In this document: piece by piece, positions 3,428 to 59,368 of the stretch
How the letters are laid out: every line of letters begins with the position of its first letter
Numbering within the stretch: position 1 is the stretch's first letter
Source: Parcubacteria group bacterium
GTDB taxonomy: Bacteria; Patescibacteriota; Minisyncoccia; Phycocordibacterales; JABMOB01
Length of the DNA stretch: 61,434 bases
NCBI GenBank assembly: GCA_013204345.1
Contig: JABMOB010000029.1
Span: 1 to 61,434 of the forward strand
Direction of reading: 5' to 3'
Translations under genes and position numbers: made by a program
The notes under the pieces: model-generated
Database searches by the model: none
What the model was told of the DNA's origin: nothing
The model's input: only the letters and a program-made list of their open reading frames with translations

Positions 3428-4891
3428 TTAATCTTTGCGGGGAAAAAGGGATGAGGAAAACATTTTGTTTTCCTTTATTGCCTTAAGAATTTTATCAGCA
3501 GTCTCTGGTAAAATAAGGCCAACCATATGAGCAATTCTGGATAGACCAATAACAAGATTTTTTATTTCTTCTTGCCCACGTTTTTCATCCACCTTTACCA
3601 ATTTGAATGGTTCTGTTTTTTGAATAGATTCATCCAATCGCGATATCTCACTCCAAATAAAATCTGCAGCTTTTTGAATATCAAAATTATCTAAATGTTT
3701 TGTGAATTCTTCTGGAAAAGAACTTGTTGGAATTGGAGTTGGTGTAGGAAGATAGGTTTCAGCCATTTTCATAATTCTACTAGCTAAATTACCTAAACCG
3801 TTTGAAAGGTTTGCATTATATGCTTCTTTGAATTTTTCTTTGGTCATATCACCATCGTCAAAAGGAGATATCTCTCTGGTAAAATAATAACGCACAGCAT
3901 CAGCTCCGTATTCGTCAATCAAATCTATTGGATTAATTACATTACCGATAGATTTGGACATTTTGTGTCCTCCTGAAGTAATGAAGCCATGGATCAAAAG
4001 ATTTTTGGGTAAGGAAATCTTAGCCGACAAGAGCATTGCGGGCCAAATAGCAGCATGGAAACGTAAAATATCCTTGCCCAGAACGTGCAGATCCGCTGGC
4101 CAAAATTTCTCAAACAGAGCGTCTTCGCCCTCGCCAAATCCCAAAGCCGAAATATAGTTTACCAAAGCATCACACCAAACATAAATCACCTGCTCAGAGT
4201 CGCCAGGTACTGGAATACCATGTGGAACATTTTTTATAGGGCGAGAAAAACTAACATCATCAAGACCGCGTCCCAGCAAGGCCAGAACTTCATTCCTACG
4301 ACTGTCCGGAATGATATTTAGTTCTCCTTTTTCTATTTTTTCTTTTATGACCGAGGTGTATTTCGACAGTTTAAAAAAGTAGTTTTTTTCTTCGATTTTC
4401 TCCGGAACAGAAAGATGTATTGAACATTTCCCATCAATCAAATCTTTTTCCGTGTAAAAAGATTCACAACCACTACAATAAAGACCAGAGTATGTGCCCG
4501 GATATATATCCCCAGCTTCTGTAAGTTTTTTCCACAAAGCAATGGCTCCCGGCCAGTGCCGTTCTTTATCACTTGTTCTGATAAATTGGCTATAGGAAAT
4601 ATTGAGTCTGGAAAAAAGATTTTCAAAACCTTTAGAAATTTCATCCAAAAAAACTCCAACATCTTTGTTTTGTTCGAAAGCAGCTTTCACGACCTTACCT
4701 GTGTTTTCATCGGCACCGGTCAAAAAATAAACTTCTTCACCAATAACCTTATGGTATCTAGCCAAAATATCACAGACTGTCATGGTATAAGCATGACCAA
4801 GATGCAAATTTGCATTTGGATAAAAAATTGGAGAGGTTATATAAAAATTTTTAGAAGACTTTACGTCTTTTTTTCTCTTTAGACCAAACAT
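3428..4891 (-). CDS. metG: Methionyl-tRNA synthetase (short form, no C-terminal tRNA-binding domain)
   Basis: HIGH-type NLHLGHAY motif, a KMSKS motif and a CSGC...C zinc knuckle. Confidence 0.95.
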   Translation of the reverse strand: MFGLKRKKDVKSSKNFYITSPIFYPNANLHLGHAYTMTVCDILARYHKVIGEEVYFLTGADENTGKVVKAAFEQNKDVGVFLDEISKGFENLFSRLNISYSQFIRTSDKERHWPGAIALWKKLTEAGDIYPGTYSGLYCSGCESFYTEKDLIDGKCSIHLSVPEKIEEKNYFFKLSKYTSVIKEKIEKGELNIIPDSRRNEVLALLGRGLDDVSFSRPIKNVPHGIPVPGDSEQVIYVWCDALVNYISALGFGEGEDALFEKFWPADLHVLGKDILRFHAAIWPAMLLSAKISLPKNLLIHGFITSGGHKMSKSIGNVINPIDLIDEYGADAVRYYFTREISPFDDGDMTKEKFKEAYNANLSNGLGNLASRIMKMAETYLPTPTPIPTSSFPEEFTKHLDNFDIQKAADFIWSEISRLDESIQKTEPFKLVKVDEKRGQEEIKNLVIGLSRIAHMVGLILPETADKILKAIKENKMFSSSLFPRKD

Positions 4892-4906
4892 ATATTTGAA
4901 AATTGA

Positions 4907-5968
4907 TTAAGCGCGAGATGAAGCTTCTTCTTCTAGAACCTTGTCCCGCTGGACGTCATTGAAAAATTCCATAAGCACAGCGGCGACCGGCACAGAAAGC
5001 AATAGCCCCATAAAACCAGCGAGCTGGACTCCAGCGACAAGAGCAACGATAGATATTATAGGAGAAACACCAACCACCTTTTTTACCACAAGTGGATATA
5101 TGAGTTGATTTTCAAATTGCTGAATGATTACATAAAAACCAACTATCAAAAGTGCGGTAGTTATCCCCTCATTCAAAAAAGCAAGAGCGACAGCTGGTAC
5201 GGCGGCAAGGACTGGACCAAAAAGTGGGATGAGTTCAAAAACTCCAGCAAGAACTGCGAGAAGCAAAGCATGTTTTATACCAAAAAGAGCGAGGCCTAGA
5301 TAAACCAACACTGCGATAATAACAGCAAGAAGGAGTTGCCCTTGCATCCAAAGACCTATCTTCCTCTGAGAACGTTCCCATAAACTAGCTACATACTTTC
5401 GGTGTTTAAGAGGGCTAACTGTTTTTAGAAATACACCGATACCGTCCTCTTGTACTGAAAGATAAAATGAAATAACAATGATTAGGATGAATGACAAAAA
5501 TCCTCCAAAAACAAAGCTGATTGAGCTCCACAAACCTTCTGACAAACCAGAGACAACGCTATTTATATGACTTACGATCTCTTTGAGGGAGAAACTACTA
5601 CCTAGATTTGAAAGGAACGGTTGGGCAGATGAATTAGAAGAGTCTACAGAGCCTAAATATGCTGGAAGGCTGTTTAGAAACACTGATGTGTCTGACAGAA
5701 GCGGAACAACAAGAAAATAGAAGGTTCCCGCTACAAAAAAAGCTAGCATTAGATAAATAAATAGGACTGACGGCAAACGTGGTATTTTGTGATTTATAAA
5801 CCATCTTGTAATCGGTTCGATCGCAGTAGCCACTACAATAGATCCCAATAGCGCCAAAAGGAGATCTTTTAAGAAAAAGGCTACGAAAAACAATAGGACA
5901 ATCAGAACTGATTTTACTATCACGCTAGTGCTTATATTTATGTTTGTATGATGATGGTTATTATCCAT
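4907..5968 (-). CDS. AI-2E (PerM/YhhT) family transporter
   Basis: 353 aa polytopic membrane protein. The C-terminal FENQLIYPLVVKKVVGVSPI motif is typical of the family. Confidence 0.78.
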   Translation of the reverse strand: MDNNHHHTNINISTSVIVKSVLIVLLFFVAFFLKDLLLALLGSIVVATAIEPITRWFINHKIPRLPSVLFIYLMLAFFVAGTFYFLVVPLLSDTSVFLNSLPAYLGSVDSSNSSAQPFLSNLGSSFSLKEIVSHINSVVSGLSEGLWSSISFVFGGFLSFILIIVISFYLSVQEDGIGVFLKTVSPLKHRKYVASLWERSQRKIGLWMQGQLLLAVIIAVLVYLGLALFGIKHALLLAVLAGVFELIPLFGPVLAAVPAVALAFLNEGITTALLIVGFYVIIQQFENQLIYPLVVKKVVGVSPIISIVALVAGVQLAGFMGLLLSVPVAAVLMEFFNDVQRDKVLEEEASSRA

Positions 5969-6019
5969 TTTAATAGCTTAACGATACCACAACATAGTTA
6001 TTTTTGAAAGTTTGACCCA

Positions 6020-7288
6020 CTAAACCCCCAAAATCTGTTCGAACTCCCTACTCTCCTTGAATCGCCCGATCAAAGCTAAGTTTAGTTTTTTGTTTTGAAA
6101 AATATCTTTAGCCACTTTTTGAATATCTCTTGCTGTTACCTTTCTCAATTCTTTTGCCATCTCTTCCGGTGTTTTTATTTTCTGACGCAGTATTTCTTGA
6201 GCACCATAGAATTGAGCAATGTCATCAGAAGGTTCCAGAGTCAAAAACATATTACCAATAGAATACTCTTTCGCCTTTTTTAATTCTTCCTCGGAAACAA
6301 TCTCATTTTTAAGCTTTTTCAATTCATCAAGAATTGCCAAAATGACTTCTTTAACCCGAGTATTATCTACCCCGCTAGCAACACCAAACATACCATGATC
6401 AGTATATTGATCTCCAAAAGCTCTAACATAATAACAAACGCCCATTTGATTGCGAAGTTTATCAAAAAGACGAGAACTCATACCACCACCCAAAATCGTG
6501 GCGAGTAAATCTAAAGCGGGCGTTCTTTTGTCAAAAATATCGTAAGCACGAAAACCTAAAACCATATGTGTTTGATCGGTTTCCTTGAACTTTACCAAAA
6601 CTTTTGGCTTATTTTGTTTCTCAATAACTTTTTCCTTAGGATACTTGCGACCTGTCGAGATATTCTTGAAAGCTTCAGAAATTTCTTTCAATACTTTTTT
6701 CTCATTAAAATTCCCAGACACTACTACCGTCGTAGCTTTTGCCACATAATGCTTTTTTCGGTAATTTATAAAATCTTCTCGTTTTATTGCTTTAATATTC
6801 TTGTTGGGACCAAGAATACTCCATCCTGCTGGCTGATCACCGTAGACCAATTGCATAATCAAATCACGAATATGACGTTGGGGCATATCCTCATACATAT
6901 TTATTTCTTCCACTATAACTCCCTTTTCTTTCTCTATCTCCTTCGCTTCAAAAAGCGGATTGAGATACATATCCGAAAGAACATCTATAATTTTTGAAAC
7001 ATGCTTGGGGTGAACTTTTGCATAATAGCCAGTAAATTCTTGCGAGGTAAAAGCGTTGTGTTGTGAGCCAAGAGAGTCGAATTCCCTACTGATATCACTC
7101 GCGACAGGCCTACGAGCAGTCCCCTTAAAAACCATATGCTCCAAAAAATGAGATAAACCATTTATTTCTTTTGTCTCATATTTTGAGCCAGCTTCTACTA
7201 GTACAAAAACCGACACAGCAGGATTGTCTTTCATTGGGATAGTTATAACCCTCATTCCATTTTTCAAAACTTTTTTCTTGAATTTCAT
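6020..7288 (-). CDS. M16 (pitrilysin/insulinase) family zinc peptidase
   Basis: Inverted zinc motif HFLEHMVFKGT near the N-terminus. 422 aa. Confidence 0.87.
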   Translation of the reverse strand: MKFKKKVLKNGMRVITIPMKDNPAVSVFVLVEAGSKYETKEINGLSHFLEHMVFKGTARRPVASDISREFDSLGSQHNAFTSQEFTGYYAKVHPKHVSKIIDVLSDMYLNPLFEAKEIEKEKGVIVEEINMYEDMPQRHIRDLIMQLVYGDQPAGWSILGPNKNIKAIKREDFINYRKKHYVAKATTVVVSGNFNEKKVLKEISEAFKNISTGRKYPKEKVIEKQNKPKVLVKFKETDQTHMVLGFRAYDIFDKRTPALDLLATILGGGMSSRLFDKLRNQMGVCYYVRAFGDQYTDHGMFGVASGVDNTRVKEVILAILDELKKLKNEIVSEEELKKAKEYSIGNMFLTLEPSDDIAQFYGAQEILRQKIKTPEEMAKELRKVTARDIQKVAKDIFQNKKLNLALIGRFKESREFEQILGV

Positions 7289-7377
7289 AACGGCAGTTTA
7301 GCATAAAATGACGAAGAAAAAAGCCTACCACTTAGGAGGGTCCTCAGTAGATACCTAAGACCACCCTAGGTAAAATC

Positions 7378-8763
7378 TTAATTGAGTTTTAAAGATTCTA
7401 GAAGTTTTGAAATCTCTACCCTCTCTTGCTTGCCAGTATCCCTGTCGCGTAAAGTCACCGTACCATCTTCTAATGTATCGAAATCAATTGTTACGCAATA
7501 TGGTGTACCGATTTCATCTTGTCTACGATAACGTTTACCAATATTGCCGTTGTCATCAAACACAACTGCGCCCAGTTCTTTTTTGAGAGTAACAAAAACT
7601 TCGCGGGCTTTTTCTACAAGCTGAGGTTTATTTTTCAAAAGCGGAAATACGGCAACTTTTATTGGCGCCATATTTGGTGAAAAACGCAAAACGATCCTTT
7701 TTTCTCCGTTCATCTCATCTTCAGTATAAGCGTCGGCGAGAAGCATTAATATCATACGGTCAACACCCACTGAAGTTTCAATAACATGCGGAATATATCT
7801 TTCTTTTGTCTCTTCATCAAAAAAAGACAAATCAACACCTGAAAATTTCTGATGCTGGCTTAAATCGTAGTCGCCACGATAATGAACACCCTCCAATTCG
7901 TTCCAGCCGAATGGATATTCATATTGTATATCCCACGCATCTTTTGCGTAGAAAACTAAATTTTCGTGCTGTTTCCAACGCAATTTATTTTTATCAACCC
8001 CAAGCCGGTCATAAAACGCCATCCTTTCTTTTTTCCATTCCTCGTAAGCGACAGGTGCATCTTTTGGTGAAACAAAGTACTGCATCTCCATCTGTTCAAA
8101 CTCACGCTTGCGAAACAAAAACTGACGCGGACTTATTTCATTACGAAACGCTTTGCCGACTTGAGCCACGCCGAACGGAATGGAATAAAATCCGGAATCC
8201 AAAATATTTTTATAATTTATAAATATACCCTGAGCCGTTTCTCCACGTAGATATACTTGCTCATCCCCCTCCTCAAACATACCGAGCGTAGAAGTTGCCA
8301 AGAGACTTTTTGCGGTTACTTTTCCAAAATCTTTCTTGCCACAAACTGGGCAGTGTAGTTTGGTACGATTGTCGTCAAATATTTTATTGATTTGCAATTC
8401 GGACATTTTTTCATCAGCGACAACACCTATAATTTCCAGAAGATGATCGGCTCGTAGTTTTGTGTGACAATTATTACAGATAACAAGTGGATCAGAAAAA
8501 CCACTTACATGACCACTTGCTTCCCACACTTTTCCGGCCGTAAAAATACTGGAGTCAATCATAGCAATATTTTCATGGTCCATGTTCATAGACTTAGTCC
8601 ACTCACCAACGACATTGCGATGCAAATTTACCCCAAGAGGGCCCCAGTCATATGTACCAGCAAAACCTCCATAAATCTCAGACCCTTGAAAAACAAAACC
8701 GCGCCTTTTGCAAAGCGAAACGATTTTCTCCATTTTATCTGACAGTGTTTTTTCTTTTGCCAT
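7378..8763 (-). CDS. glyQS: Glycyl-tRNA synthetase (alpha2 dimeric type)
   Basis: RGFVFQGSEIYGG..., class II motifs and a C-terminal anticodon-binding domain. 461 aa. Confidence 0.95.
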   Translation of the reverse strand: MAKEKTLSDKMEKIVSLCKRRGFVFQGSEIYGGFAGTYDWGPLGVNLHRNVVGEWTKSMNMDHENIAMIDSSIFTAGKVWEASGHVSGFSDPLVICNNCHTKLRADHLLEIIGVVADEKMSELQINKIFDDNRTKLHCPVCGKKDFGKVTAKSLLATSTLGMFEEGDEQVYLRGETAQGIFINYKNILDSGFYSIPFGVAQVGKAFRNEISPRQFLFRKREFEQMEMQYFVSPKDAPVAYEEWKKERMAFYDRLGVDKNKLRWKQHENLVFYAKDAWDIQYEYPFGWNELEGVHYRGDYDLSQHQKFSGVDLSFFDEETKERYIPHVIETSVGVDRMILMLLADAYTEDEMNGEKRIVLRFSPNMAPIKVAVFPLLKNKPQLVEKAREVFVTLKKELGAVVFDDNGNIGKRYRRQDEIGTPYCVTIDFDTLEDGTVTLRDRDTGKQERVEISKLLESLKLN

Positions 8764-8777
8764 ATAATTTATTTTTA

Positions 8778-10724
8778 CTACTTTACAACTTTTTCGTCAC
8801 CAAATTTATAACTAGGATCAGTAGTGATTCTAGTATTAAGAGTTGGTTTATCTAACTTTAGCACACTTCCTGTAAACCGATCTTGGCCCACAAGACTGAT
8901 GTTATCAAGCAATGTAGGAGTACTACCTACCTGACTTAAGCTTGGTAAAAAAGAGACCTTAAAGTTAACTTCATTTGGAGAAGAACCAAACCCTGTACCA
9001 GCTTTTATTTCTCCGGCGGACCATGTCACGGTATTATTTGCAGGGTTAAATATTACTTTCTGACCAGTAGGACTGACTGCGTCGTCTACTAATTTTACAT
9101 AGGAAGGCAGAGTTCCAACTACTTCAACATTAGATACATCATTGAAAGAGTTTGTGATAGCCCATTTTACTGTATAAGTAGTCTCCTTATCAGCAGCAGG
9201 AGGCATAGAACCAGTGTTTGTAAAAGGGCCCACTGAATGGACTATTTGAGAATTTAGACGAATGTCAGACGCAATTTTGATTTGGCGAGAAAGAGTAGCC
9301 AGAACTTCATCTGGCAGATTAACATCCGAAAACTTTTTACCGATAACTTCAATATCGATATTGATACTACCGTTTCGAAGAGACGACATAAGACTTGATG
9401 AATTTTTGAACGAACCAAAATTAAATTTTAGTGAATTTGTTCCACCTGGACTGATCCTCCCCAATCCTGTTGTATTATTTTTATCCCAAGAAATAATATT
9501 ATTCAAAGAACGGAAAAAGCCTCCACCTATGGGAAAAACTAATGATCGGTCGAGTGCATTACCTGTCAACTTTGCTTCTACACGCACATTATTTACATCA
9601 ACAGATATATTGTTTGCTAGATTAATATTTCCTTGTATTACTTCACCAATATTTGAAATGTAATCACCGTTTGTGTTGCCATTTAGATCTAAAACTAAAC
9701 CGATAAATGGTTTTTTTATAGAAACTGATTCGGCTACTGTTATGAAATCTATGCCAATAAGTTTTTCATCCTGACTGCTCGCGGTACCGATATGAAACCT
9801 AAAAGTTTTTTCTTCTTCATTTTGTCCTTGTATTTTTCCTCTAATTGTTATTACTCTTTTTTCTTTTGGTTTCAAATCACCAACTTTCCATACATTGTTA
9901 TCAAAAAGAACTAATGGTGTAGCACTTTGGAAAACAAAACCGAAAGGATAATCTACCCTTACCAAAAGATTCTCTAAAATATTATTTGAGTTTGATGTAA
10001 TTGTGGCAGAAAACACAATATCCTGGTTAGCGTTTATTTCTTTTGGATAGTCTACTACCAAAACGATGGGAGAGGAGTTTATAGAAATTTGATATAACTT
10101 ATCTTTAGAAAAAACAGCGTTTGACCCTTTGGCCATATATTCCATTGTAATTTTTATATCTTTAATACTATCCTTCTCACCAAACAAAACAGCGCTGACT
10201 GTTTTACCAACACTCTTTCCAGCTAAAATTGTTCCGAGGTTTTGTTTATCCCTCAAAAGCTCTTCACCAATATTTTTCGGTGTTCTTGTGCCGGGGGGAT
10301 ACTCTATTAGTATGTCTGCATCTGTAAGATCAACACTATTATTGTTTTGAATTACAATATCTAAAACAAGCTCTTCACCAGCAGCTACTGAAATAAGACC
10401 GTTTACCGAAATATCAATGTTGTTTGAAGAAATACTATTGAAACCGGCAAAAAATAGATAGGTAGCGACAAGCACCGCGACAAAAAAGAAAACTACAGAA
10501 CTAGTTAGTAATTTATGAAAAAAAGTATTTTGCGACTTTTCTTCACCTCCCGACTCAAGGTTGGTCTGAAACTCCTGATCTACACCAGACCAGTTTGTAT
10601 TTACATCATACTCCGTCTCTGTAATTTTTGACCGTTTCCTATCTATTACAGATGGTTTCTCACGTGAATATAAATCTTCCTGAAGCTCGTCTATTGGACT
10701 TTTTTCATCATTATTATTCTGCAT
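8778..10724 (-). CDS. Hypothetical single-pass membrane protein with a large beta-rich extracytoplasmic region
   Basis: 648 aa ORF with one TM segment (SSVVFFFVAVLVATYLFFAGF), followed by repetitive Ig-like/beta-sandwich-looking sequence. No family was recognised. Confidence 0.6.
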   Translation of the reverse strand: MQNNNDEKSPIDELQEDLYSREKPSVIDRKRSKITETEYDVNTNWSGVDQEFQTNLESGGEEKSQNTFFHKLLTSSVVFFFVAVLVATYLFFAGFNSISSNNIDISVNGLISVAAGEELVLDIVIQNNNSVDLTDADILIEYPPGTRTPKNIGEELLRDKQNLGTILAGKSVGKTVSAVLFGEKDSIKDIKITMEYMAKGSNAVFSKDKLYQISINSSPIVLVVDYPKEINANQDIVFSATITSNSNNILENLLVRVDYPFGFVFQSATPLVLFDNNVWKVGDLKPKEKRVITIRGKIQGQNEEEKTFRFHIGTASSQDEKLIGIDFITVAESVSIKKPFIGLVLDLNGNTNGDYISNIGEVIQGNINLANNISVDVNNVRVEAKLTGNALDRSLVFPIGGGFFRSLNNIISWDKNNTTGLGRISPGGTNSLKFNFGSFKNSSSLMSSLRNGSINIDIEVIGKKFSDVNLPDEVLATLSRQIKIASDIRLNSQIVHSVGPFTNTGSMPPAADKETTYTVKWAITNSFNDVSNVEVVGTLPSYVKLVDDAVSPTGQKVIFNPANNTVTWSAGEIKAGTGFGSSPNEVNFKVSFLPSLSQVGSTPTLLDNISLVGQDRFTGSVLKLDKPTLNTRITTDPSYKFGDEKVVK

Positions 10725-10770
10725 ATGGTTTTAAATTATAACACAAGATGCCTATTTAAGAATTACTTTC

Positions 10771-10806
10771 GACTTTATGGACATTATAGACTTTACGGAC
10801 TATTTA
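10771..10806. repeat. Tandem 9-mer array (GACTTTATG-like, 4 units)
   Basis: Units are gactttatg, gacattata, gactttacg and gactattta. The array abuts the recO stop. The same 9-mer is tandemly repeated at 27417-27449. Confidence 0.8.
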
Positions 10807-11397
10807 AAGATGACTTTCTTTGATAGCGTTATTTATTTCTCGAAGTGCCTCTTCCTTATGCTTATCCATACTATAGAGCAACTCAGCGTTCCAGCTGGAA
10901 TTTTCTGTAAATTCTTTTAGATTTAAAAAATCCCCATGATAGCCAAGAGAATATAAAATCCTCAAAAGCACAATGCATTCAAAATTTTTTACATGTTTAT
11001 TTTCTATTTTTGATTCTTGTAGAAATTGAAAAGCCGAGGAAAGGATTATAAAAAGTTCTTCGTTTTTTTCTTCTCCCGCGACAAGCTTTTTCACTAAAGA
11101 CAAAATATTTGCACAGACTAAAAATTTCTCTTTGTCTGAACGAAGGGACTCGTATAAGTTATTTGTGGGTAAAACATTTGTTACTCTCCAAATATTCTTT
11201 CCTCGGACAAGAGAAAACCGTGAATAAGAAAAGTCTTGTAAACCGTAGCGTAACTTGGATGACACAGAGCGCACAGCTTGAGCATTTGCGCCAACAAGTC
11301 CAAGATTTTTGGTAAAAATATAGATATATTTATTAGCTTCACCTGTGGGTATACTGCCCAAAATAAAGCCGTCGGTTGTATAAATATGATGAGCCAT
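10804..11397 (-). CDS. recO: DNA repair protein RecO (divergent)
   Basis: 197 aa. N-terminal OB-like GFILGSIPTGEANKYIYIFTKNLGLV, then a helical region with LLRILYSLGY. Confidence 0.6.
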   Translation of the reverse strand: MAHHIYTTDGFILGSIPTGEANKYIYIFTKNLGLVGANAQAVRSVSSKLRYGLQDFSYSRFSLVRGKNIWRVTNVLPTNNLYESLRSDKEKFLVCANILSLVKKLVAGEEKNEELFIILSSAFQFLQESKIENKHVKNFECIVLLRILYSLGYHGDFLNLKEFTENSSWNAELLYSMDKHKEEALREINNAIKESHL

Positions 11398-11448
11398 GAA
11401 TTAGTAGTCTAAAGTCGAATGTCAAAAGTTAAAAGCTTAATTAAAAAA

Positions 11449-14400
11449 CTAATTACGAGAAATTTTAATTGAAAACTTCTCATTATTGACTTCTATCTCT
11501 TCACCGCCAAGAACCTCTTTATATTCAATTTTTTTGACTTGAGTTGTTTTCATAATTTCTTTTTTGTTTTCCTCCAAGAACTTTTTACCTTTTTCGCTAA
11601 CAGAAACTACTAGAGAAATATCGTCTTTAGGATTTAATTTTTCTTTTTTCCTCAACTCTTGAATAGACCTAATAAAATCACGGATACCTCCCTCTATCTT
11701 CAGTTCAGTGTTGATTTTTGTATCCAAAACAACCTCCTCTGCAAGTTTAATGTCGAAAAGAACTTCCTTTACATTAACCTCATCTAAAATAAGGCCGATT
11801 AAATCTTTTTTGCCTTTGATAATATCACCCTTAACTGTAAGTTTTTGAAGAGGTTGTCTGACTTTTATTTCCGCCTTGGCACGAGCTTCTAAACCAAGAC
11901 TTACAATCCTTCTCACCTCTTTCATATCAGTCCCCCCAAGTACGTCCTTGATTGACTGTGCGTCAACTTCCGGCCAATCTTCCAAATGAACACTCTCTTT
12001 ACCATTGATATCTTTCACTTTCTGGTATATTTCTTCAGCCATAAACGGCATAAACGGCGCGATAAGCCGAGAAAGTTCTCGCAGGACAAACCGAGTGGTC
12101 TGCAGAGCATTTCTCTTATCTTTCTCATCATCACCTTTAAAACGATCACGTGAACGACGAATATACCAAACGGACAAATCGTCAATAAAATCACCAATTG
12201 GCCTAGTAGCTCTGTCTATTTCATATTTTTCAAGTGATGATGTAATCTCATAGTTCAACTGATGAAGTCGTGTCAGAATCCAACGATCCAAGATATTTTC
12301 ACTTGCATTTTTATCTTGAATAATTTCTTTGTTATCACCATACATCTCATAAAAAGAAACAATATTTTGCAGACGCGAAATATTTTTCTTGTAAACTTCC
12401 TCCACTCCTTTTTCCGAGAAAAATAGATCCTCTGACTTCAAAAGTGACGATGAAAACAGATAATAACGCAAAGCGTCTACCCCATATTTATCGAACAAAA
12501 TCCAAGGATCCGGAAAATTACCTTTTGATTTCGACATTTTTTGACCATCTTCCGCCAAAACCGTACCAGTCGTTACAACATTTTCGAAAGGAATTTTGTC
12601 GAAAAGCAACGTAGAAATAACATGCGTATAATAGAACCACGTCCTTGTCTGGGCTATATATTCCACTACAAATTGTGCAGGGAAATTATTTTTAAACCAT
12701 TCTTCATTTTTAAAAGGGTAATGTTTTTGAGCAAAAGGCATTGAACCAGACTCAAACCAGCAATCAACTACTTCCGGTATGCGTTTCATCTCACCATTAC
12801 AACAAGAACACTTCCACTTTATCTCATCTATATATGGACGGTGAAAATCAAGTTTGTAGTTTTTATTGTGCGGAAATTGAGCAAAAGCAAGTTCTCTGAT
12901 TTCACCCTTTGTGAAATAACCTATATTTTTTTCTCCCGAGTTTATAATTTCTTTCTCTGACAAACCTTTGGAACCAGCAACAAGAAAGGCAAGTTCTGTA
13001 TCATGTCCGACAATTAAAATATTTTTACCGGAAACTTTAGAATCTGTTTCAAATAAAAATTCCGTTCCCCTGTTTTTCAACTCAGCAAGTGTCTCTCCTC
13101 CATCTGGTTTCTTCTCAAAACGATCAGAGAAAGAATACTTCTTAAAATACTCACTCCATGTTTTTCCTTGAAAAGAGCCTATATTAAACTCTCTAAGCCT
13201 CTCATCTGTAGCAACACTCTCCTTTGACAAACCTAGTTTTTCCCGAACAATTTCCGCTGTCTCTTTTGTGCGAACAAAATCTGACGATATTATGATATCT
13301 ATATTCTTATCTTTGAGCATTTCTACAGAAGAAACGACTTGTTCTCTACCTCTTTCGGTCAATCTATAGAGATCATTTACATGACAACTAACCTTGTCTA
13401 TCAGATTTTGCTCTGCTTCACCGTGACGCATCACAAAATAATGATTACCACGAGAAGTTTTCTTTTTTATATCCTCCAAACCACCGACAACTTCAACTTC
13501 CCCACATTTTTCACACTTCCAAATCGGTAGAGGTGAAGCCCAATAACGATTTCTAGAAATATTCCAATCGGGAGCCCCCTCCATACTCTTCTTAAAACGC
13601 CCTTCTTTCAAATGTTCTGGTATCCAATTTATTTTTTTGTTTAGATCAAGTAAGCGACTTTTAATATCTTGTATTTTTATAAACCAAGCTGGAATGGCAT
13701 AGTAATAAAGCGGGGTTTCGCATCTAAAACAGTGCGGATATGAGTGAACAATTTTTTCTTTCTTAAACAGAAGATCTTTGTGTGCTAAATTTTTGATTAT
13801 CAAGACATCGCCAGATTGATGATCCTCTTTCGGTTTGACCAACGCACCAGCAAAATCAACTACATCTCCTTTAAATTTTCCATCCAAACCAACATGATGA
13901 ATAAACGGAATATTTTTTTCCTTGGCAAGAATCATGTCGTCCTCACCATACCCAGGTGCCACATGAACAATACCAGTACCGTCAGCAGTAGTTACAAAAC
14001 CAGCACTATAAACTTTCCAGGCGTTTTCTTTATTTGGAAAATCTTTTGTGACGAAATAATCAAAAATGGGTTTGTAAGATTTACCTACCAATTTTTCCCC
14101 TTTTATTTTTTTGATTATTTTATAATCTTCGGAAATTACCGATAATCGTGACTCAGCAAGAATAAATTTTTCGTCACCAATAGCAATCTCCACATATTCA
14201 ATATCCGGATTAACCGCCAAAGCAAAATTTCCCGGCAATGTCCATGGTGTTGTCGTCCACGCCAAAAAATAAGTTTTCGCCTGTCCCGCGGAGTCTCGGT
14301 GAAGTGGGGGTTCATCTACTATTTCAAACTTCACATAAACAGAAATATCCGTAATATCTTTATAACTGTTATCCATCGCAATTTCAGAGTTTGCAATCGG

Positions 14401-14967
14401 CGTCTCGCACCTTGGACAATACGGCAAAACTTTCGTGCCCTCATAAATCAATCCTTTGTTATAAATTTCTTTGAGTGCCCACCATACAGACTCTATGAAG
14501 GAGTTGTCCATCGTCTTGTATGAGCCTTCAAAATCAACCCAACGTGCAATTCGCTCTACAGTTTTTTCCCAATCGTGAACATAATCCAAAACTTTGCTCC
14601 GCGCATGTTCGTTGAATTTTTCAACTCCTAATTTTTCAATTTCTTTCCGACCAGAAATTTTTAAATCTTTTTCAACAATATTTTCGATCGGCAAACCATG
14701 GCAATCCCAACCCCAACGACGGGCAACATGGAAACCGCGCATCGTTTTGTATCGAGGAATAAGATCTTTGATCACGCTTGCTAAAATATGACCGTAGTGA
14801 GGCAAACCAGTGGCAAAAGGAGGACCATCGTAAAACACATATTCACCTTCTGGTGATTTCTTTTGTAAAGATTTATGAAAAATCTTACTCTTGTTCCAAA
14901 ACTCAAGAATTTTCTCCTCTTTTTCGGCTATTGGACTTTTATTATTTTCAGGTTTTTTCTCGGCCAT
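11449..14967 (-). CDS. ileS: Isoleucyl-tRNA synthetase (type 2) with an internal histidine-phosphatase-like insertion
   Basis: PHYGHIL (HIGH), KMSKS, WTTTPWTLPGN in the editing domain and zinc-knuckle CxxC pairs. 1172 aa, including an insert of about 200 aa at residues about 507-705. Confidence 0.95.
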   Translation of the reverse strand: MAEKKPENNKSPIAEKEEKILEFWNKSKIFHKSLQKKSPEGEYVFYDGPPFATGLPHYGHILASVIKDLIPRYKTMRGFHVARRWGWDCHGLPIENIVEKDLKISGRKEIEKLGVEKFNEHARSKVLDYVHDWEKTVERIARWVDFEGSYKTMDNSFIESVWWALKEIYNKGLIYEGTKVLPYCPRCETPIANSEIAMDNSYKDITDISVYVKFEIVDEPPLHRDSAGQAKTYFLAWTTTPWTLPGNFALAVNPDIEYVEIAIGDEKFILAESRLSVISEDYKIIKKIKGEKLVGKSYKPIFDYFVTKDFPNKENAWKVYSAGFVTTADGTGIVHVAPGYGEDDMILAKEKNIPFIHHVGLDGKFKGDVVDFAGALVKPKEDHQSGDVLIIKNLAHKDLLFKKEKIVHSYPHCFRCETPLYYYAIPAWFIKIQDIKSRLLDLNKKINWIPEHLKEGRFKKSMEGAPDWNISRNRYWASPLPIWKCEKCGEVEVVGGLEDIKKKTSRGNHYFVMRHGEAEQNLIDKVSCHVNDLYRLTERGREQVVSSVEMLKDKNIDIIISSDFVRTKETAEIVREKLGLSKESVATDERLREFNIGSFQGKTWSEYFKKYSFSDRFEKKPDGGETLAELKNRGTEFLFETDSKVSGKNILIVGHDTELAFLVAGSKGLSEKEIINSGEKNIGYFTKGEIRELAFAQFPHNKNYKLDFHRPYIDEIKWKCSCCNGEMKRIPEVVDCWFESGSMPFAQKHYPFKNEEWFKNNFPAQFVVEYIAQTRTWFYYTHVISTLLFDKIPFENVVTTGTVLAEDGQKMSKSKGNFPDPWILFDKYGVDALRYYLFSSSLLKSEDLFFSEKGVEEVYKKNISRLQNIVSFYEMYGDNKEIIQDKNASENILDRWILTRLHQLNYEITSSLEKYEIDRATRPIGDFIDDLSVWYIRRSRDRFKGDDEKDKRNALQTTRFVLRELSRLIAPFMPFMAEEIYQKVKDINGKESVHLEDWPEVDAQSIKDVLGGTDMKEVRRIVSLGLEARAKAEIKVRQPLQKLTVKGDIIKGKKDLIGLILDEVNVKEVLFDIKLAEEVVLDTKINTELKIEGGIRDFIRSIQELRKKEKLNPKDDISLVVSVSEKGKKFLEENKKEIMKTTQVKKIEYKEVLGGEEIEVNNEKFSIKISRN

Positions 14968-15056
14968 ATATAAGAGATATAGCCAAAATCATAGCATACT
15001 GACTGCTATTCCCCAAAAGGACGCAGACAAAAATTACTATTTGTATATCTTTTATA

Positions 15057-15569
15057 CTAAGACTTTTTTACAGGTTTATATTGCTTTCCAATACTAAAAG
15101 CTTTGTCTGATATGACCAAAATCCATTGTTTATGAAGACGCCTACCAACAAGACCGTACCAACGCTCGATAAAATCTTTTATTTTAAGACGGAAACTTGG
15201 ACCATTCCAAGGATCATTTAAAATAATTTCATCATTTTTAAAACCAGTGACAATGGCGTAATGATCATCTTCATCTGAAGGCTCCCTATAATGGACGATT
15301 ATTGGCATACCCAAACCAATAAAGTGCCTGATTTCGTTTATAGAAGAGTTGTTATTTGCGTAACAGTAAAAACCTTCCTTTATGGCGGCGTTTATTAAAC
15401 CTCTGTGACCTGTACCATCTGTTGTTGTTTTAGCCTTTTTTGTCAGAAATTTTTCACTCTTCAGATGGCCGAAAAATGACATGGCCATTTGCAAAACAGC
15501 TGGACCACAGGTGTAATTAGTATCTTGTTCGTAAAAAGGGACCTTTAATTTCATATGCTTACTATTCAA
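15057..15569 (-). CDS. Peptidase C39-like (papain-fold) domain protein
   Basis: VPFYEQDTNYTCGPAVLQMA (catalytic Cys context) and DHYAIVTGF...NDPW (His context). 170 aa. Confidence 0.6.
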   Translation of the reverse strand: MNSKHMKLKVPFYEQDTNYTCGPAVLQMAMSFFGHLKSEKFLTKKAKTTTDGTGHRGLINAAIKEGFYCYANNNSSINEIRHFIGLGMPIIVHYREPSDEDDHYAIVTGFKNDEIILNDPWNGPSFRLKIKDFIERWYGLVGRRLHKQWILVISDKAFSIGKQYKPVKKS

Positions 15570-15571
15570 TA

Positions 15572-17290
15572 TTACATCTTCTCAGGCACTTTTATACCCA
15601 AAAGATATAACCCATTGCCCATTACCATAACAAACGCTTTCGTTAAAGCAATTCTGTAAGGAGAATCTACGTTTTCTTTATCAATAATTTTCGTTTTGGC
15701 ATAAAAACTATTGAAAGTCCCCGCTAATTCGGTAAGGTACGTCACAATACCACTCGGTAAATATTCTTTGCCAGCCATATCCACAACCTCTGGAAATCTA
15801 TATAGGATTTTTTCTAAATCCGACACGATTCCATTATTCTTTTTAACAGAAGCTTTCATTTTGTCTGTTTTGGCTTTTTGCAAAACAGAACTTGCCCTAG
15901 TATAAGCATACTGAAGATACGGCCCAGAATCTCCTTCAAATGAAATGGATTTCTCTGGGTCAAAAATAATATCTTTGCCCACAGATTGCCGTAAAATGGA
16001 ATATTTTATAGATGCCACGCCGACATCCTCTGCGATTTTTCCTTTTTCATTATCATTAAAATTTCTGCCCTTCATTTTTAGGAAAACCTCTTCCTCCATT
16101 TCGTATATAAGTGATTCTCCAGTAATCACATTTCCATCCCTAGAAGACATCTTGCCGGAAGTTAACTTCAGCATTCCGTGCGACAAATGCTTTGTTTTTT
16201 GGGCAATTTCCGGATAAGTTAGTTCCAAAGCTTTTAATACAACCTTGAAATAATCATTTTGTTCGTTGGCGGTTATAATAATCGCGTTATCAAAGTGAAA
16301 CTTCTTGTATTTTCTTATTGCATGAGCAATATCTTTTGCCTCGTAAGTGGGAATACCTTGTGAATTTACAAAAACTCTAGTATGCAGTTTTGGATCGTAT
16401 TTTTCTCCTTTAAAAACAATGGCGCCATCGCTTTCTTCAAAAACCCCTTTCGTGAGAAATTTTTTAACAATAACAAGCGCATCTTTTTCTACCTCACTTT
16501 CAAAAAAGTAATAATCAAATTTTGTACCAAGCTTTTTATAGAGTTCTTCAAAATGAGCTAGGCTTATATTTCTCGCCCACATATACAATCTTTCTAATTC
16601 CTCATCCTTACCTTCAAAAAGTTTTTTGTTTATCTCTTTTATTTCTGCCTGAGCATCTTTATTATCTTCGTATGCGCTGGCGCCATAAGCATAAGCCCTG
16701 CCTAGAAATTGAATCTGTTCACTTAAGCCAGATGCCGGCATTTCGCTTTTAAGTTTCGTAATCCCCCACAAAGCTTTTGCTATATGAAGTCCAACATCTC
16801 CCTGATATGTATTTCTCTTTAATTTTGCACCATTCCATTCCAAAACCCTTGAAAGCGATTCCCCGATAACGTTACCCATAAGATGCCCTATGTGAAGTGG
16901 TTTTAAAACATTAGTATTTGTGTATTCAATAATAGTCTTTTCACCTTTTAGATTTTTGTTTTTACCATAATCATCTTCTTTTTTTAATATTTCAGCTATA
17001 TTGTCAACAAAAAACTTTTTGGAAAGATAGAAATTTATAAATCCAGGCCCGGCAACTTCAATTTTTTCCACTTCCAGTGGAATTTTTTCTATATTTGCTA
17101 CAATTTTGTCTGCCAACTCTCGTGGCGCAATTTTTTGTTCCTTAGATAATCCCAAAGCCACATTGCAAGAATAATCCCCATGAGAAAGTTCTGTTGGGTG
17201 CTCAAAAACGATCTTTTCTGGAGAAATAGATAAATCCAGACTCTTCAAAGAGTCGTTTATTAGAGAAAATAGTGTTTGTTTGATGTCCAT
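15572..17290 (-). CDS. argS: Arginyl-tRNA synthetase
   Basis: HIGHLMGNVIG (HIGH), a KMSSRDGN variant and a C-terminal DALR-type domain. 572 aa. Confidence 0.95.
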   Translation of the reverse strand: MDIKQTLFSLINDSLKSLDLSISPEKIVFEHPTELSHGDYSCNVALGLSKEQKIAPRELADKIVANIEKIPLEVEKIEVAGPGFINFYLSKKFFVDNIAEILKKEDDYGKNKNLKGEKTIIEYTNTNVLKPLHIGHLMGNVIGESLSRVLEWNGAKLKRNTYQGDVGLHIAKALWGITKLKSEMPASGLSEQIQFLGRAYAYGASAYEDNKDAQAEIKEINKKLFEGKDEELERLYMWARNISLAHFEELYKKLGTKFDYYFFESEVEKDALVIVKKFLTKGVFEESDGAIVFKGEKYDPKLHTRVFVNSQGIPTYEAKDIAHAIRKYKKFHFDNAIIITANEQNDYFKVVLKALELTYPEIAQKTKHLSHGMLKLTSGKMSSRDGNVITGESLIYEMEEEVFLKMKGRNFNDNEKGKIAEDVGVASIKYSILRQSVGKDIIFDPEKSISFEGDSGPYLQYAYTRASSVLQKAKTDKMKASVKKNNGIVSDLEKILYRFPEVVDMAGKEYLPSGIVTYLTELAGTFNSFYAKTKIIDKENVDSPYRIALTKAFVMVMGNGLYLLGIKVPEKM

Positions 17291-48154: not shown

Positions 48155-48216
48155 AGCATGTATTATAGCCGAATAACGCTTCACAACAAACACTCGTAAA
48201 GCTAACTAAGATAAAA

Positions 48217-51686: not shown

Positions 51687-52076
51687 TTAGTTTGCTGGAC
51701 TATTTTCAAATAGAGATAACCATGCGATTATTTGTGGGCTATAAAAAGTGTCTTTGTTCGTAAGTAAATATAATTTATCAAGTCTATTTGTTTCTATTCG
51801 GCGAGTAAGACTAAAAATATAACCTACGAAAAGAAATAGTAAAAATAAAATCAATAATGAAACAGTAGAAACTGTAACGACTGAAAAGAAACTATTGTAG
51901 GACGCGATATGATGAATCACCATACCTAAAGAGAGGGGTGGACAGTTGGAAGAATCACCCAGAGATAAAAAACAATTGCCGTCGTGATTGATATAAGCGA
52001 AACCAAAAAGGCTTACAGTAAGAATAACTGTAACCAATACCAGGGTGAAAATTTTTGTTTGATTACCTAAAATCAT
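51687..52076 (-). CDS. Hypothetical membrane protein, start overlapping the ATPase stop by 4 nt
   Basis: 129 aa with two or three TM segments. Coupled to the upstream copper ATPase gene. Confidence 0.5.
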   Translation of the reverse strand: MILGNQTKIFTLVLVTVILTVSLFGFAYINHDGNCFLSLGDSSNCPPLSLGMVIHHIASYNSFFSVVTVSTVSLLILFLLFLFVGYIFSLTRRIETNRLDKLYLLTNKDTFYSPQIIAWLSLFENSPAN

Positions 52077-59349: not shown

Positions 59350-59368
59350 CCGTTGAACGATGGCCACC
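59293..59368 (-). tRNA. tRNA-His (GTG anticodon) with encoded G-1 and CCA
   Basis: Cloverleaf built by hand. G-1 plus GTGGCCA/TGGTCAC acceptor stem, GTTC/GGAC D stem, TTGCT-TTGTGGA-AGCAA anticodon arm and CTGGG-TTCGATT-CCCAG T arm. Confidence 0.9.

What the first reader, a model, noticed from the sequence alone, without database searches (positions are those of the whole stretch)
12853..13449. Histidine-phosphatase-like domain inserted in frame inside isoleucyl-tRNA synthetase
In type 2 IleRS, the zinc-knuckle segment (...PIWKCEKCGEVEVVGGLEDIK) is normally followed within a couple of dozen residues by D.HRPYID. Here about 200 residues (about 507-705) intervene. They read like a branch-1 histidine phosphatase of the dPGM/CobC/SixA superfamily. 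The recognisable elements are YFVMRHGEAEQN (RHG catalytic motif), SSDFVRTKETAEIV, ERLREFNIGSFQGKTW and ILIVGHDTE (second His). The ORF is continuous at 1172 aa and the flanking IleRS motifs are intact. A catalytic-looking phosphatase nested in an aaRS catalytic core is not something I recognise as described. It could link aminoacylation to a phosphorylated metabolite or nucleotide.
Basis: partly seen in the sequence, partly recalled or inferred. Interest (0 to 1): 0.7.

Follow-up and report, generated by a model that had tools for sequence, protein, structure and literature searches.

The report
Active-looking phosphatase nested inside isoleucyl-tRNA synthetase
An essential protein-synthesis enzyme (isoleucyl-tRNA synthetase) of a tiny candidate-phyla-radiation (CPR) bacterium carries a complete, apparently active phosphatase spliced into its catalytic core; this design is shared by a whole bacterial lineage and I found no description of it.

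Summary
ORF 11449-14967 (-) is an intact type 2 isoleucyl-tRNA synthetase (IleRS). It carries a 193-residue insertion (residues 506-698, window 12874-13452) that is a complete branch-1 histidine phosphatase (HP; Pfam His_Phos_1, E 1e-28). The insert sits at the tip of the second zinc knuckle of the Rossmann fold.

It is not a misassembly. 119 of the 120 closest IleRS clusters and 55 GTDB species genomes of Paceibacteria/Parcubacteria carry it at the same site. Overall identity in the insert is only about 40%, yet the catalytic Arg-His, Arg and His are invariant (119/119) and the Glu is kept in 118/119.

In Candidatus Staskawiczbacteria the same phosphatase is a separate 189-aa gene wedged between argS and ileS. 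This is the operon seen in the window.

The same domain family is inserted at the homologous loop of valyl-tRNA synthetase (ValRS). It also occurs as tandem arrays of 2-4 copies, fused to ArgRS, and fused to TsaC.

The substrate is unknown. The domain is not a phosphoglycerate mutase, CobC, SixA or PspA by curated cut-offs, and the window encodes its own iPGM. My best guess, held with low confidence, is removal of a phosphorylated by-product (PPi or AMP) of adenylate-forming tRNA enzymes. I found no description of this architecture, but the literature tool failed for most queries.

The parts
11449..14967 (-). ileS: 1172-aa type 2 isoleucyl-tRNA synthetase carrying the insertion
   Evidence: ORF. 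TIGR00392 scores 895.9 bits against a cut-off of 621.4. The AF2 model matches IleRS2 8c8v with target-normalised TM-score 0.83, and 1ile with 0.92.
13453..14967 (-). IleRS N-terminal part (residues 1-505): first half of the Rossmann fold, CP1 editing domain, ISRNRYW motif and first half of zinc knuckle 2
   Evidence: Aligns to 8c8u residues 5-479.
14788..14799 (-). HIGH signature (HYGH, residues 57-60)
   Evidence: H57, G59 and H60 are invariant in 116 homologues.
13504..13515 (-). First half of zinc knuckle 2 (CEKC, C485/C488), just upstream of the insert
   Evidence: Its partner CSCC lies just downstream of the insert.
12874..13452 (-). Inserted histidine phosphatase domain (residues 506-698, 193 aa). 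It is equivalent end-to-end to a free-standing 189-aa protein.
   Evidence: It is a pure insertion relative to 8c8u and P0085. It aligns from N- to C-terminus with the standalone proteins P0001-P0017. AF2 gives pLDDT 95 and pTM 0.91.
12949..13437 (-). Pfam His_Phos_1 (PF00300) match, residues 511-673
   Evidence: E 1.4e-28.
13420..13428 (-). RHG motif (R514, nucleophile H515, G516)
   Evidence: R and H are present in 119/119 insert-bearing homologues. The motif aligns to R9/H10 of PhoE.
13270..13272 (-). R566, second phosphate-binding arginine
   Evidence: 119/119. Aligns to R59 of PhoE.
13189..13191 (-). E593, predicted general acid
   Evidence: 118/119, with one Asp. Aligns to E83 of PhoE.
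13003..13005 (-). H655, second catalytic histidine
   Evidence: 119/119. Aligns to H151 of PhoE.
12799..12810 (-). Second half of zinc knuckle 2 (CSCC, residues 720-723), downstream of the insert
11452..12873 (-). IleRS C-terminal part (residues 699-1172): rest of the Rossmann fold, KMSKS, anticodon-binding domain and the C-terminal domain typical of type 2 IleRS
   Evidence: Aligns to 8c8u residues 479-902 and beyond. Pfam Anticodon_1 and DUF5915 match.
12526..12540 (-). KMSKS signature (residues 810-814)
15572..17290 (-). argS, upstream operon neighbour. In Staskawiczbacteria the free-standing phosphatase gene lies between argS and ileS.
   Evidence: ORF. Synteny.
10804..11397 (-). recO, conserved downstream neighbour of ileS in both the insert-bearing and the separate-gene loci

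Best explanation
Shown. The window encodes a two-enzyme protein. A fully equipped type 2 IleRS carries a complete PhoE/CobC-like branch-1 histidine phosphatase (HP). The HP is nested at the tip of the second zinc knuckle of the Rossmann fold, between the ISRNRYW...PIW strand and the D.HRPYID / DCWFESG segment.

This is an old, vertically inherited trait of IleRS in the Paceibacteria/Parcubacteria branch of the candidate phyla radiation. It has interconverted at least once with a free-standing gene in the slot between argS and ileS, and it has been lost secondarily at least once.

The phosphatase catalytic residues are under strong purifying selection while the rest of the domain drifts. The domain is therefore almost certainly an active phosphoryl-transfer enzyme that works through a phospho-histidine intermediate on H515.

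Inferred. The same domain family is repeatedly linked physically to enzymes that consume ATP to give AMP + PPi while acting on tRNA: IleRS, ValRS, ArgRS and TsaC. It is also sometimes multiplied in tandem inside them. I therefore think its activity is functionally tied to these reactions.

The single most likely role is hydrolysis of a small phosphorylated by-product generated at the adenylation site. Pyrophosphate is the first candidate and 5'-AMP the second. Removing it would pull amino-acid activation forward and relieve product inhibition in organisms with minimal metabolism.

My confidence in the core description (real, conserved, catalytically competent, bifunctional) is about 0.9. Functional coupling to the synthetase is about 0.6-0.65. 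The specific by-product-removal mechanism is about 0.25-0.3.
For: Identity of host and insert.

Autonomous, confident fold, with confident linkers in the full-length model (pTM 0.85). Foldseek probability is 1.0 to small-molecule histidine phosphatases (GpgP, PspA, PhoE, HFP, CobC).

Conservation: R514, H515, R566, E625, R633 and H655 are 119/119, E593 is 118/119 and N521 is 114/119. Mean identity is 40% in the insert against 62% in the IleRS core.

Distribution: 119 of the 120 best IleRS clusters carry PF00300. 55 of 80 GTDB loci have the domain in frame inside ileS, across Nealson-, Wolfe-, Taylor-, Nomura-, Kaiser-, Zambryski-, Campbell-, Lloydbacteria and others, including complete genomes. 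719 clusters at 50% identity match the profile at E<=1e-30, and 100 of the top 149 are IleRS with the domain at the same site.

Separate-gene form: the 189-aa proteins align end-to-end with the insert. They lie between argS and an insert-less ileS, and the start overlaps the argS stop. In many insert-bearing loci argS directly abuts ileS.

Secondary loss: P0085 is sister to the window protein in 98% of bootstraps and lacks the insert.

Other hosts:
- ValRS with the domain at the homologous loop, in 27 of the 120 closest ValRS, with catalytic residues kept.
- An ArgRS-HP fusion and a Sua5/YrdC(TsaC)-HP fusion.
- Tandem arrays of 2-4 domains, nearly all keeping RHG and the second His.

Not a glycolytic mutase: the window has its own iPGM, and the insert is far below the curated cut-offs for dPGM.

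Only the generic phosphate-binding core is conserved and the cap region is variable. This fits a substrate recognised mainly through its phosphate.
Against: No activity has been measured, and the substrate is pure inference.

I know of no branch-1 histidine phosphatase shown to be a pyrophosphatase (from memory; not checked).

A diffusible by-product would not require covalent linkage.

The ArgRS and TsaC fusions are single examples. The ArgRS fusion could follow trivially from overlapping genes.

The insert can be lost. P0085 lacks it, and ValRS relatives 90% identical in the flanks lack it. It is therefore not indispensable.

I could not obtain model coordinates, so the distance and orientation of H515 relative to the ATP or tRNA site are unknown.

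I could not test whether these genomes lack a conventional pyrophosphatase. A tblastn with E. coli Ppa on 0.95 Mb of held sequence found nothing, but that is too little sequence to be informative.
Confidence: 0.4

Rival explanations
1. The domain is a housekeeping small-molecule phosphatase that is merely co-expressed. It would be a general PhoE-like enzyme needed somewhere in the cell's reduced metabolism. It landed in a permissive surface loop of an abundant essential enzyme next to its original gene, and it stays there because the fusion is harmless and guarantees expression. It has no mechanistic link to aminoacylation.
For: The closest structural and sequence relatives are metabolite phosphatases with no nucleic-acid role. 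The free-standing form works without covalent linkage. The loop is a general insertion hot spot: other inserts occur there in ValRS (P0170, P0195, P0193), and GNAT co-occurs in P0359. Histidine phosphatase termini lie close together, which suits domain insertion (secondary-structure order).
Against: Linkage to translation enzymes recurs: the same site in two paralogous synthetases, operon position between two synthetase genes, ArgRS and TsaC fusions, and tandem arrays. This is more than one neutral accident would predict. The domain is also dispensable in some close relatives, which is odd for a core metabolic enzyme.
Confidence: 0.27
2. The domain dephosphorylates a macromolecule at the synthetase. 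It would remove a 2'/3'-phosphate or pyrophosphate from the tRNA CCA end (healing of damaged or toxin-modified tRNA). Alternatively it would remove a phosphate placed on the synthetase itself by a HipA-like toxin kinase. Substrate recognition would be supplied by the host enzyme.
For: The hosts IleRS, ValRS and ArgRS all bind the tRNA acceptor end. Only the phosphate-binding core of the domain is conserved, as expected if the host presents the substrate. Known precedents, from memory and not checked here: phosphatase activity of the HD domain of E. coli CCA-adding enzyme; toxic RelA/SpoT homologues that pyrophosphorylate the tRNA 3' end; HipA/HipT phosphorylation of GltX/TrpS; protein-directed family members such as SixA, Sts and PGAM5.
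Against: The inserted domains are not basic (mean net charge -0.3 in IleRS and -2.5 in ValRS). TsaC does not handle the acceptor end. There is no similarity to any PADLOC defence model. The nearest relatives are metabolite phosphatases. No geometry is available.
Confidence: 0.18
3. The domain is a ligand-sensing or structural module. It would bind, or be transiently phosphorylated by, a phosphorylated metabolite, and would modulate synthetase activity allosterically. Alternatively it would simply serve as a structural spacer.
For: The full-length model places the domain and its linkers with high confidence, suggesting a fixed docking. Many histidine phosphatase family members are regulatory (general knowledge).
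Against: Invariance of the nucleophile His, both Arg, the second His and the acid Glu over hundreds of divergent sequences argues for catalysis rather than binding alone. The free-standing and tandem forms do not fit a fixed structural role.
Confidence: 0.1
4. The feature is an assembly chimera, or a selfish in-frame mobile insertion (intein-like) with no function for the host.
For: Presence in ValRS is patchy among near-identical relatives. One protein combines a transposase-like domain with the phosphatase (P0359).
Against: The same junctions occur in more than 100 independent assemblies, including complete genomes. There is no compositional break. No intein or endonuclease domain is present. 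The catalytic residues are under selection. In IleRS the insert is inherited vertically with the host gene.
Confidence: 0.02

Closest known systems
PhoE/YhfR broad-specificity phosphatase of Geobacillus stearothermophilus (PDB 1h2e/1ebb) and relatives (GpgP Rv2419c, PspA, CobC, HFP)
   Same: Same fold and same catalytic set (RHG, second Arg, Glu, second His). Similar size, about 190-210 aa. These are the best sequence and structure matches.
   Different: Those are free-standing metabolic enzymes. Identity is only 22-27%. The insert scores far below every curated NCBIfam cut-off (CobC 75.7 vs 162.9; PspA 51 vs 350; SixA 35 vs 74.5; dPGM 36.7 vs 81.7). No substrate can therefore be transferred by homology.
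CP1 editing domain of class Ia synthetases (IleRS, ValRS, LeuRS)
   Same: It is also a hydrolytic domain nested inside the Rossmann fold of the same enzymes, giving a second active site on one polypeptide.
   Different: CP1 is universal, sits at a different insertion point, has an unrelated fold and hydrolyses misacylated tRNA. The phosphatase is lineage-restricted, lies in the second zinc knuckle, and its substrate is unknown.
IleRS with an N-acetyltransferase domain (NCBIfam NF040702, ileS_w_GNAT)
   Same: It is another IleRS variant that carries an extra enzymatic domain and is recognised by NCBI curators. At least one protein (P0359) combines the phosphatase and a GNAT domain in a synthetase.
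   Different: The window protein matches that model only over its ordinary IleRS part (342 bits against a cut-off of 1999). No curated model exists for the phosphatase-bearing form.
Bifunctional RNase H / CobC-like acid phosphatase of mycobacteria (Rv2228c; NCBIfam NF005567)
   Same: A branch-1 histidine phosphatase is fused to a nucleic-acid enzyme. The phosphatase part gives a weak match (E 4e-18).
   Different: That is an end-to-end fusion, not a nested insertion. The partner is different. The score is far below cut-off (66 vs 326).

Membership tests
Type 2 (eukaryote-like) isoleucyl-tRNA synthetase, class Ia | Whole-protein score above the curated ileS cut-off | tested here: met
   TIGR00392 scores 895.9 bits against 621.4.
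Type 2 (eukaryote-like) isoleucyl-tRNA synthetase, class Ia | HIGH and KMSKS signatures and the CP1 editing motifs | tested here: met
   HYGH at 57-60, KMSKS at 810-814, WTTTPWTLP at 237-245 and GTGIVHVAPGYGEDD at 330-344. These motifs are conserved in 116 homologues.
Type 2 (eukaryote-like) isoleucyl-tRNA synthetase, class Ia | Type 2 architecture and fold (C-terminal domain; closer to IleRS2 than to IleRS1) | tested here: met
   Sequence E-value is 1e-221 to IleRS2 8c8u, against 1e-89 to type 1 1ffy. Target-normalised TM-score is 0.83-0.92 to type 2 structures. Pfam DUF5915 matches.
Type 2 (eukaryote-like) isoleucyl-tRNA synthetase, class Ia | Isoleucylation of tRNA-Ile | not testable with these tools
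   Needs an enzyme assay.
Histidine phosphatase superfamily, branch 1 (Pfam PF00300) | Profile match above the gathering score | tested here: met
   100-105 bits against 21.7.
Histidine phosphatase superfamily, branch 1 (Pfam PF00300) | Catalytic core: RHG nucleophile His, two Arg, second His, acid Glu | tested here: met
   R514/H515, R566, E593 and H655 align to PhoE R9/H10, R59, E83 and H151. They are invariant or nearly so in 119 homologues.
Histidine phosphatase superfamily, branch 1 (Pfam PF00300) | Alpha/beta phosphoglycerate-mutase-like fold | tested here: met
   AF2 pLDDT 95. Foldseek probability 1.0 and TM about 0.7 to many family members.
Histidine phosphatase superfamily, branch 1 (Pfam PF00300) | Phosphatase or mutase activity through a phospho-histidine intermediate | not testable with these tools
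   Needs an enzyme assay with an H515A control.
Cofactor-dependent phosphoglycerate mutase (dPGM) | Score above the curated dPGM cut-offs | tested here: not met
   TIGR01258 scores 36.7 against 81.7, and dPGM_arch 71.7 against 225. The insert is only 193 aa. The window also has its own iPGM.
Alpha-ribazole phosphatase CobC | Score above the curated cut-off | tested here: not met
   TIGR03162 scores 75.7 against 162.9.
Phosphohistidine phosphatase SixA / phosphoserine phosphatase PspA | Score above the curated cut-offs | tested here: not met
   SixA scores 35.1 against 74.5; PspA scores 51.3 against 350.
Known anti-phage defence proteins (PADLOC) | Any profile match | tested here: not met
   No hit at E<=0.01 for the insert or for the free-standing homologue.

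The most novel reading that the evidence does not exclude
Class Ia synthetases of candidate-phyla-radiation bacteria have acquired a third active site, after synthesis and editing. This would be a histidine phosphatase placed next to the adenylation site that acts in cis on the reaction itself. It would either hydrolyse pyrophosphate or AMP to drive amino-acid activation, or strip a blocking phosphate or pyrophosphate from the tRNA 3' end or from the synthetase. The solution would have been reached repeatedly (IleRS, ValRS, ArgRS, TsaC; single or tandem copies; fused or as an operon partner).
Probability: 0.35. Interest if true: 0.85.

Novelty: new variant of a known kind. Interest (0 to 1): 0.7.

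Why it matters
Aminoacyl-tRNA synthetases are among the best-studied enzymes. Extra domains on them have repeatedly revealed new biology, such as editing, signalling and antibiotic resistance.

Here a whole, apparently active phosphatase sits inside the catalytic domain of an essential synthetase throughout a large, poorly understood bacterial radiation. Parallel cases exist in ValRS, ArgRS and TsaC.

If the phosphatase acts on the aminoacylation reaction or on tRNA, it would be a new way of coupling translation to phosphate chemistry in organisms with minimal genomes.

If it does not, it is still a clean natural example of two things. One is a gene moving between an operon slot and an internal loop of its neighbour. 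The other is a highly permissive insertion site in class Ia synthetases, which would be useful for protein engineering.

The question is directly testable with one recombinant protein and one point mutant.

Tried and rejected
- **Misassembly or chimera.** Rejected. The same junctions occur in 119 protein clusters and 55 species genomes.
- **Glycolytic dPGM, CobC, SixA, PspA.** Rejected as family assignments by curated cut-offs. An iPGM is present in the window.
- **Intein or mobile element.** No such domain is present.
- **Defence system.** No PADLOC hit.
- **GTDB scan with the mixed alignment A1.** Repeated with the standalone alignment A2.
- **Direction of the gene-to-insert change.** The NJ tree of IleRS cores puts one standalone-type group inside the insert-bearing clade. 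Monophyly of insert-bearers excluding that group appears in only 12% of bootstraps, and the root is unstable. The phosphatase-domain tree has no support at all. The direction, and whether ValRS captured the domain independently, are therefore unresolved. Mean identities are IleRS inserts vs standalone 0.36, and IleRS vs ValRS inserts 0.28.
- **First bootstrap script.** Timed out.
- **Geometry of the two active sites.** Not obtainable, because model coordinates are not exposed.
- **Standalone phosphatase next to valS.** None found next to valS in an insert-less ValRS relative.
- **Literature.** One search returned 0 papers ('isoleucyl-tRNA synthetase' + 'histidine phosphatase'). One returned nothing relevant. 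PMC5370408 does not mention the feature. Eight further searches and one paper fetch by DOI failed with time-outs.
Full report
**What is in the window**

The minus-strand ORF 11449-14967 encodes 1172 residues without interruption. It is an isoleucyl-tRNA synthetase (IleRS). TIGR00392 scores 895.9 bits against a cut-off of 621.4, and Pfam finds tRNA-synt_1, Anticodon_1 and the DUF5915 C-terminal domain typical of type 2 IleRS. The HIGH (HYGH 57-60) and KMSKS (810-814) signatures, the threonine-rich and GTG...D editing motifs, and both zinc knuckles are present.

Residues 511-673 match Pfam His_Phos_1 at E 1.4e-28. The excised segment gives 105 bits against a gathering score of 21.7.

Against the solved type 2 IleRS of Priestia megaterium (8c8u), query residues 8-505 align to chain residues 5-479 and query residues 699-1138 align to chain residues 479-902. 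Residues 506-698 (window 12874-13452) are therefore a pure 193-residue insertion that replaces nothing. The insertion lies between the two cysteine pairs of the second zinc knuckle, C485/C488 and C720/C722/C723. From memory, the structural literature on IleRS/ValRS calls this element CP3; I could not check the name. GC content shows no break.

**Is the inserted domain a real, competent phosphatase?**

Aligned to PhoE (1h2e), it keeps R514/H515 (R9/H10), R566 (R59), E593 (E83) and H655 (H151). AlphaFold2 predicts it as an autonomous alpha/beta domain with pLDDT 95 and pTM 0.91. In the full-length model (pLDDT 91.3, pTM 0.85) the domain and both linkers score 88-97. The rest of the model superposes on type 2 IleRS structures, with target-normalised TM-scores of 0.83 to 8c8v and 0.92 to 1ile.

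Foldseek places the domain among small-molecule histidine phosphatases: GpgP Rv2419c, PspA, PhoE, the riboflavin-pathway HFP and CobC. TM is about 0.7 and identity 22-27%, with no single best family. Every curated NCBIfam model is missed by a wide margin: CobC 75.7 against 162.9, PspA 51 against 350, SixA 35 against 74.5, and dPGM 36.7 against 81.7. The window also encodes a cofactor-independent phosphoglycerate mutase at 42462-43973, so the insert is not needed as the glycolytic mutase.

**It is a lineage-wide trait, not an artefact**

Of the 120 best database clusters for the full protein, 119 carry PF00300 together with the IleRS domains. They are 1124-1292 aa long and 54-79% identical. Their names include Candidatus Nomura-, Taylor-, Zambryski-, Vogelbacteria, Paceibacterota and the 2015 GW2011 Parcubacteria genomes.

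In an alignment of these proteins, R514, H515, S562, R566, E625, R633, H655 and G540 are present in 119/119. E593 is present in 118/119 and N521 in 114/119. Mean identity to the window protein is 40% in the insert and 62% in the IleRS core. This pattern of a drifting domain with a frozen catalytic core is the signature of selection for catalysis.

A profile search of 1.84 billion representative proteins found 719 clusters at E<=1e-30. Among the best 149, 100 are IleRS or IleRS fragments with the domain at the same host position, and 44 are free-standing proteins.

**The same phosphatase exists as a separate gene in the same operon**

The closest free-standing homologues (about 40% identity, 189-192 aa) align with the insert from their second or third residue to their last (…HKGEIRELN against …TKGEIRELAF). 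Their genes lie between argS and an insert-less 969-970-aa ileS, followed by recO. The phosphatase start codon overlaps the argS stop. The window has the same order: argS 15572-17290, ileS, recO 10804-11397.

A scan of one genome per GTDB species returned 80 loci, which I classified by tblastn and ORF tracing:
- 20 loci, mostly Candidatus Staskawiczbacteria, have argS | phosphatase | ileS.
- 55 loci, spread across many Paceibacteria candidate phyla and including two complete chromosomes, have the domain in frame inside ileS. In many of them argS directly abuts ileS.
- One locus has the phosphatase domain lying between the two halves of an ileS that is broken by stop codons (L071).
- Four loci are unrelated phosphatases from other phyla.

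Mean identity between IleRS inserts and the Staskawicz genes (0.36) equals that among IleRS inserts (0.38). They are one subfamily that has switched between 'neighbour gene' and 'internal domain' at least once.

P0085, a 965-aa IleRS without the insert and without an upstream phosphatase, is sister to the window protein in 98% of NJ bootstraps. The insert can therefore be lost cleanly. The direction of the original event (insertion or fission) is not resolved by my trees.

**The phenomenon is wider than IleRS**

Locus L076 encodes a valyl-tRNA synthetase (ValRS; NF004349, E 4.5e-264) with a His_Phos_1 domain at the homologous loop. The domain lies between ISRQIWYGHRIPVWY and DTLDTWFSSG. Of the 120 closest ValRS clusters, 27 carry it. 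The rest have a 41-68-residue loop, including one cluster 90% identical in the flanks. In one case (P0234) the domain again sits between two cysteine pairs. The catalytic residues are kept in the ValRS inserts.

Further architectures are:
- IleRS and ValRS with two, three or four tandem phosphatase domains. Nearly all copies keep RHG and the second histidine.
- An ArgRS with the domain fused to its C-terminus (P0413).
- A Sua5/YrdC (TsaC) protein fused to it, on a real contig (P0332, L088).

The same ValRS loop also hosts other, unidentified inserts (P0170, P0195, P0193). One synthetase combines the phosphatase with a GNAT domain.

**How it most likely works**

Shown: the protein joins an intact synthetase to a domain with every hallmark of an active histidine phosphatase. 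Selection maintains that catalytic machinery.

Inferred: the recurrent physical linkage points to a functional tie with enzymes that spend ATP to AMP + PPi while working on tRNA. The linkage includes the same loop in two paralogous synthetases, an operon slot between two synthetase genes, fusions to ArgRS and TsaC, and tandem amplification.

Only the generic phosphate-binding core is conserved. This suggests a substrate recognised chiefly by its phosphate. What all hosts have in common is the release of pyrophosphate and AMP. My best single guess, at about 25-30%, is local hydrolysis of such a by-product. PPi is the first candidate.

The rivals are:
- A housekeeping metabolite phosphatase that is merely co-expressed (about 27%).
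- Dephosphorylation of the tRNA 3' end or of the synthetase itself (about 18%). Against this, the inserts have neutral net charge and there is no PADLOC match.
- A sensor or structural role (about 10%).

**Comparison with what is known, and novelty**

The domain works like PhoE/CobC-type phosphatases, but it fails the curated membership tests of every characterised subfamily. The host is an ordinary member of type 2 IleRS.

Nested hydrolytic domains in class Ia synthetases are known (the CP1 editing domain). NCBI curates an IleRS variant with an acetyltransferase domain (NF040702). No curated model covers the phosphatase-bearing form, and public records call these proteins only 'class I tRNA ligase family protein' or 'isoleucine--tRNA ligase'.

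A full-text search for 'isoleucyl-tRNA synthetase' with 'histidine phosphatase' found no paper. All eight later literature searches and one attempt to fetch a paper by DOI timed out. The absence of a prior description is therefore likely but not established.

I rate it a new variant of a known kind, namely a synthetase with an added catalytic domain. It is of fairly high interest because it is widespread, strongly conserved, recurrent in several translation enzymes, and directly testable.

Noticed in passing
L076:4669-7350 (and proteins P0146, P0148-P0151, P0234 and others): Valyl-tRNA synthetases of Patescibacteria carry a His_Phos_1 domain at the loop homologous to the IleRS site. It is present in 27 of the 120 closest ValRS clusters and absent from a relative 90% identical in the flanks (P0147).
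   Followed up: yes
Proteins P0266, P0369, P0283, P0294, P0308, P0310, P0398: IleRS/ValRS proteins with two to four tandem histidine phosphatase domains in the insert. Nearly every copy keeps RHG and the second histidine.
   Followed up: partly
P0413; P0332 = L088:977-2140: The same phosphatase family is fused to the C-terminus of an arginyl-tRNA synthetase (P0413). It is also fused to a Sua5/YrdC (TsaC, t6A pathway) protein (P0332).
   Followed up: partly
P0359: A truncated class I synthetase that also matches an IS200-like Y1 transposase domain (residues 340-461), His_Phos_1 (680-854) and a GNAT acetyltransferase (935-1063). It may relate to NCBIfam 'ileS_w_GNAT'.
   Followed up: no
P0170, P0195, P0193, P0180, P0215: Other ValRS variants carry extra inserts. 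P0170 and P0195 have an insert of about 120 aa with no Pfam match in the same loop. P0193 has one of about 80 aa. P0180 has an ASCH domain at a second site (residues 502-587, own Pfam scan); P0215 carries the same ASCH family in the precomputed Pfam list, position not checked. The catalytic domain of class Ia synthetases in these bacteria appears to be an insertion hot spot.
   Followed up: partly
window 15057-15569 (-): A 170-aa peptidase C39-like ORF (PF03412, E 1.4e-16) occupies the slot between argS and ileS. In Staskawiczbacteria that slot holds the free-standing phosphatase gene.
   Followed up: partly
window 42462-43973 (-): Cofactor-independent phosphoglycerate mutase (iPGM_N, E 1.7e-71). 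The organism therefore does not need the insert as a glycolytic mutase.
   Followed up: yes
window 3428-17290 (-): A cluster of synthetase genes lies on one strand: MetRS-like (3428-4891), class II ProRS-like (7378-8763), IleRS and ArgRS. A 648-aa DUF11 surface-type protein and recO are interspersed.
   Followed up: partly
window 57625-59367: A large serine recombinase ORF (57625-59349, +) overlaps at its end the only tRNA gene in the window (tRNA-His, 59293-59367, -). This may be the edge of an integrated element.
   Followed up: no
window 39061-41373 (+); 45464-48193 (-); 52073-54403 (-); 35884-37872 (-): Four other large ORFs: a ribonucleotide reductase with an ATP-cone and weak matches to the B12-dependent type; two P-type ATPases, one with heavy-metal-binding domains; and a 662-aa protein with weak prenyltransferase/squalene-cyclase-like repeats.
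   Followed up: no
L071:4300-8300: In this GTDB representative the insert-bearing ileS is broken into several short ORFs by stop codons. This could be a pseudogene, a poor assembly or another genetic code.
   Followed up: no
L008, L009, L014, L017, L020-L022, L024, L026 versus L010-L013, L018, L019, L023, L025: Genomes with the free-standing phosphatase carry one of two clearly different IleRS lineages (each clade has 100% bootstrap; about 35% vs about 50% identity to the window protein). The phosphatase sits downstream of argS in both. In six loci 0.9-2.1 kb of other sequence separates it from ileS.
   Followed up: partly
L089:1320-5001: About 3.7 kb without any called gene lies directly upstream of the insert-less valS of P0147.
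   Followed up: no
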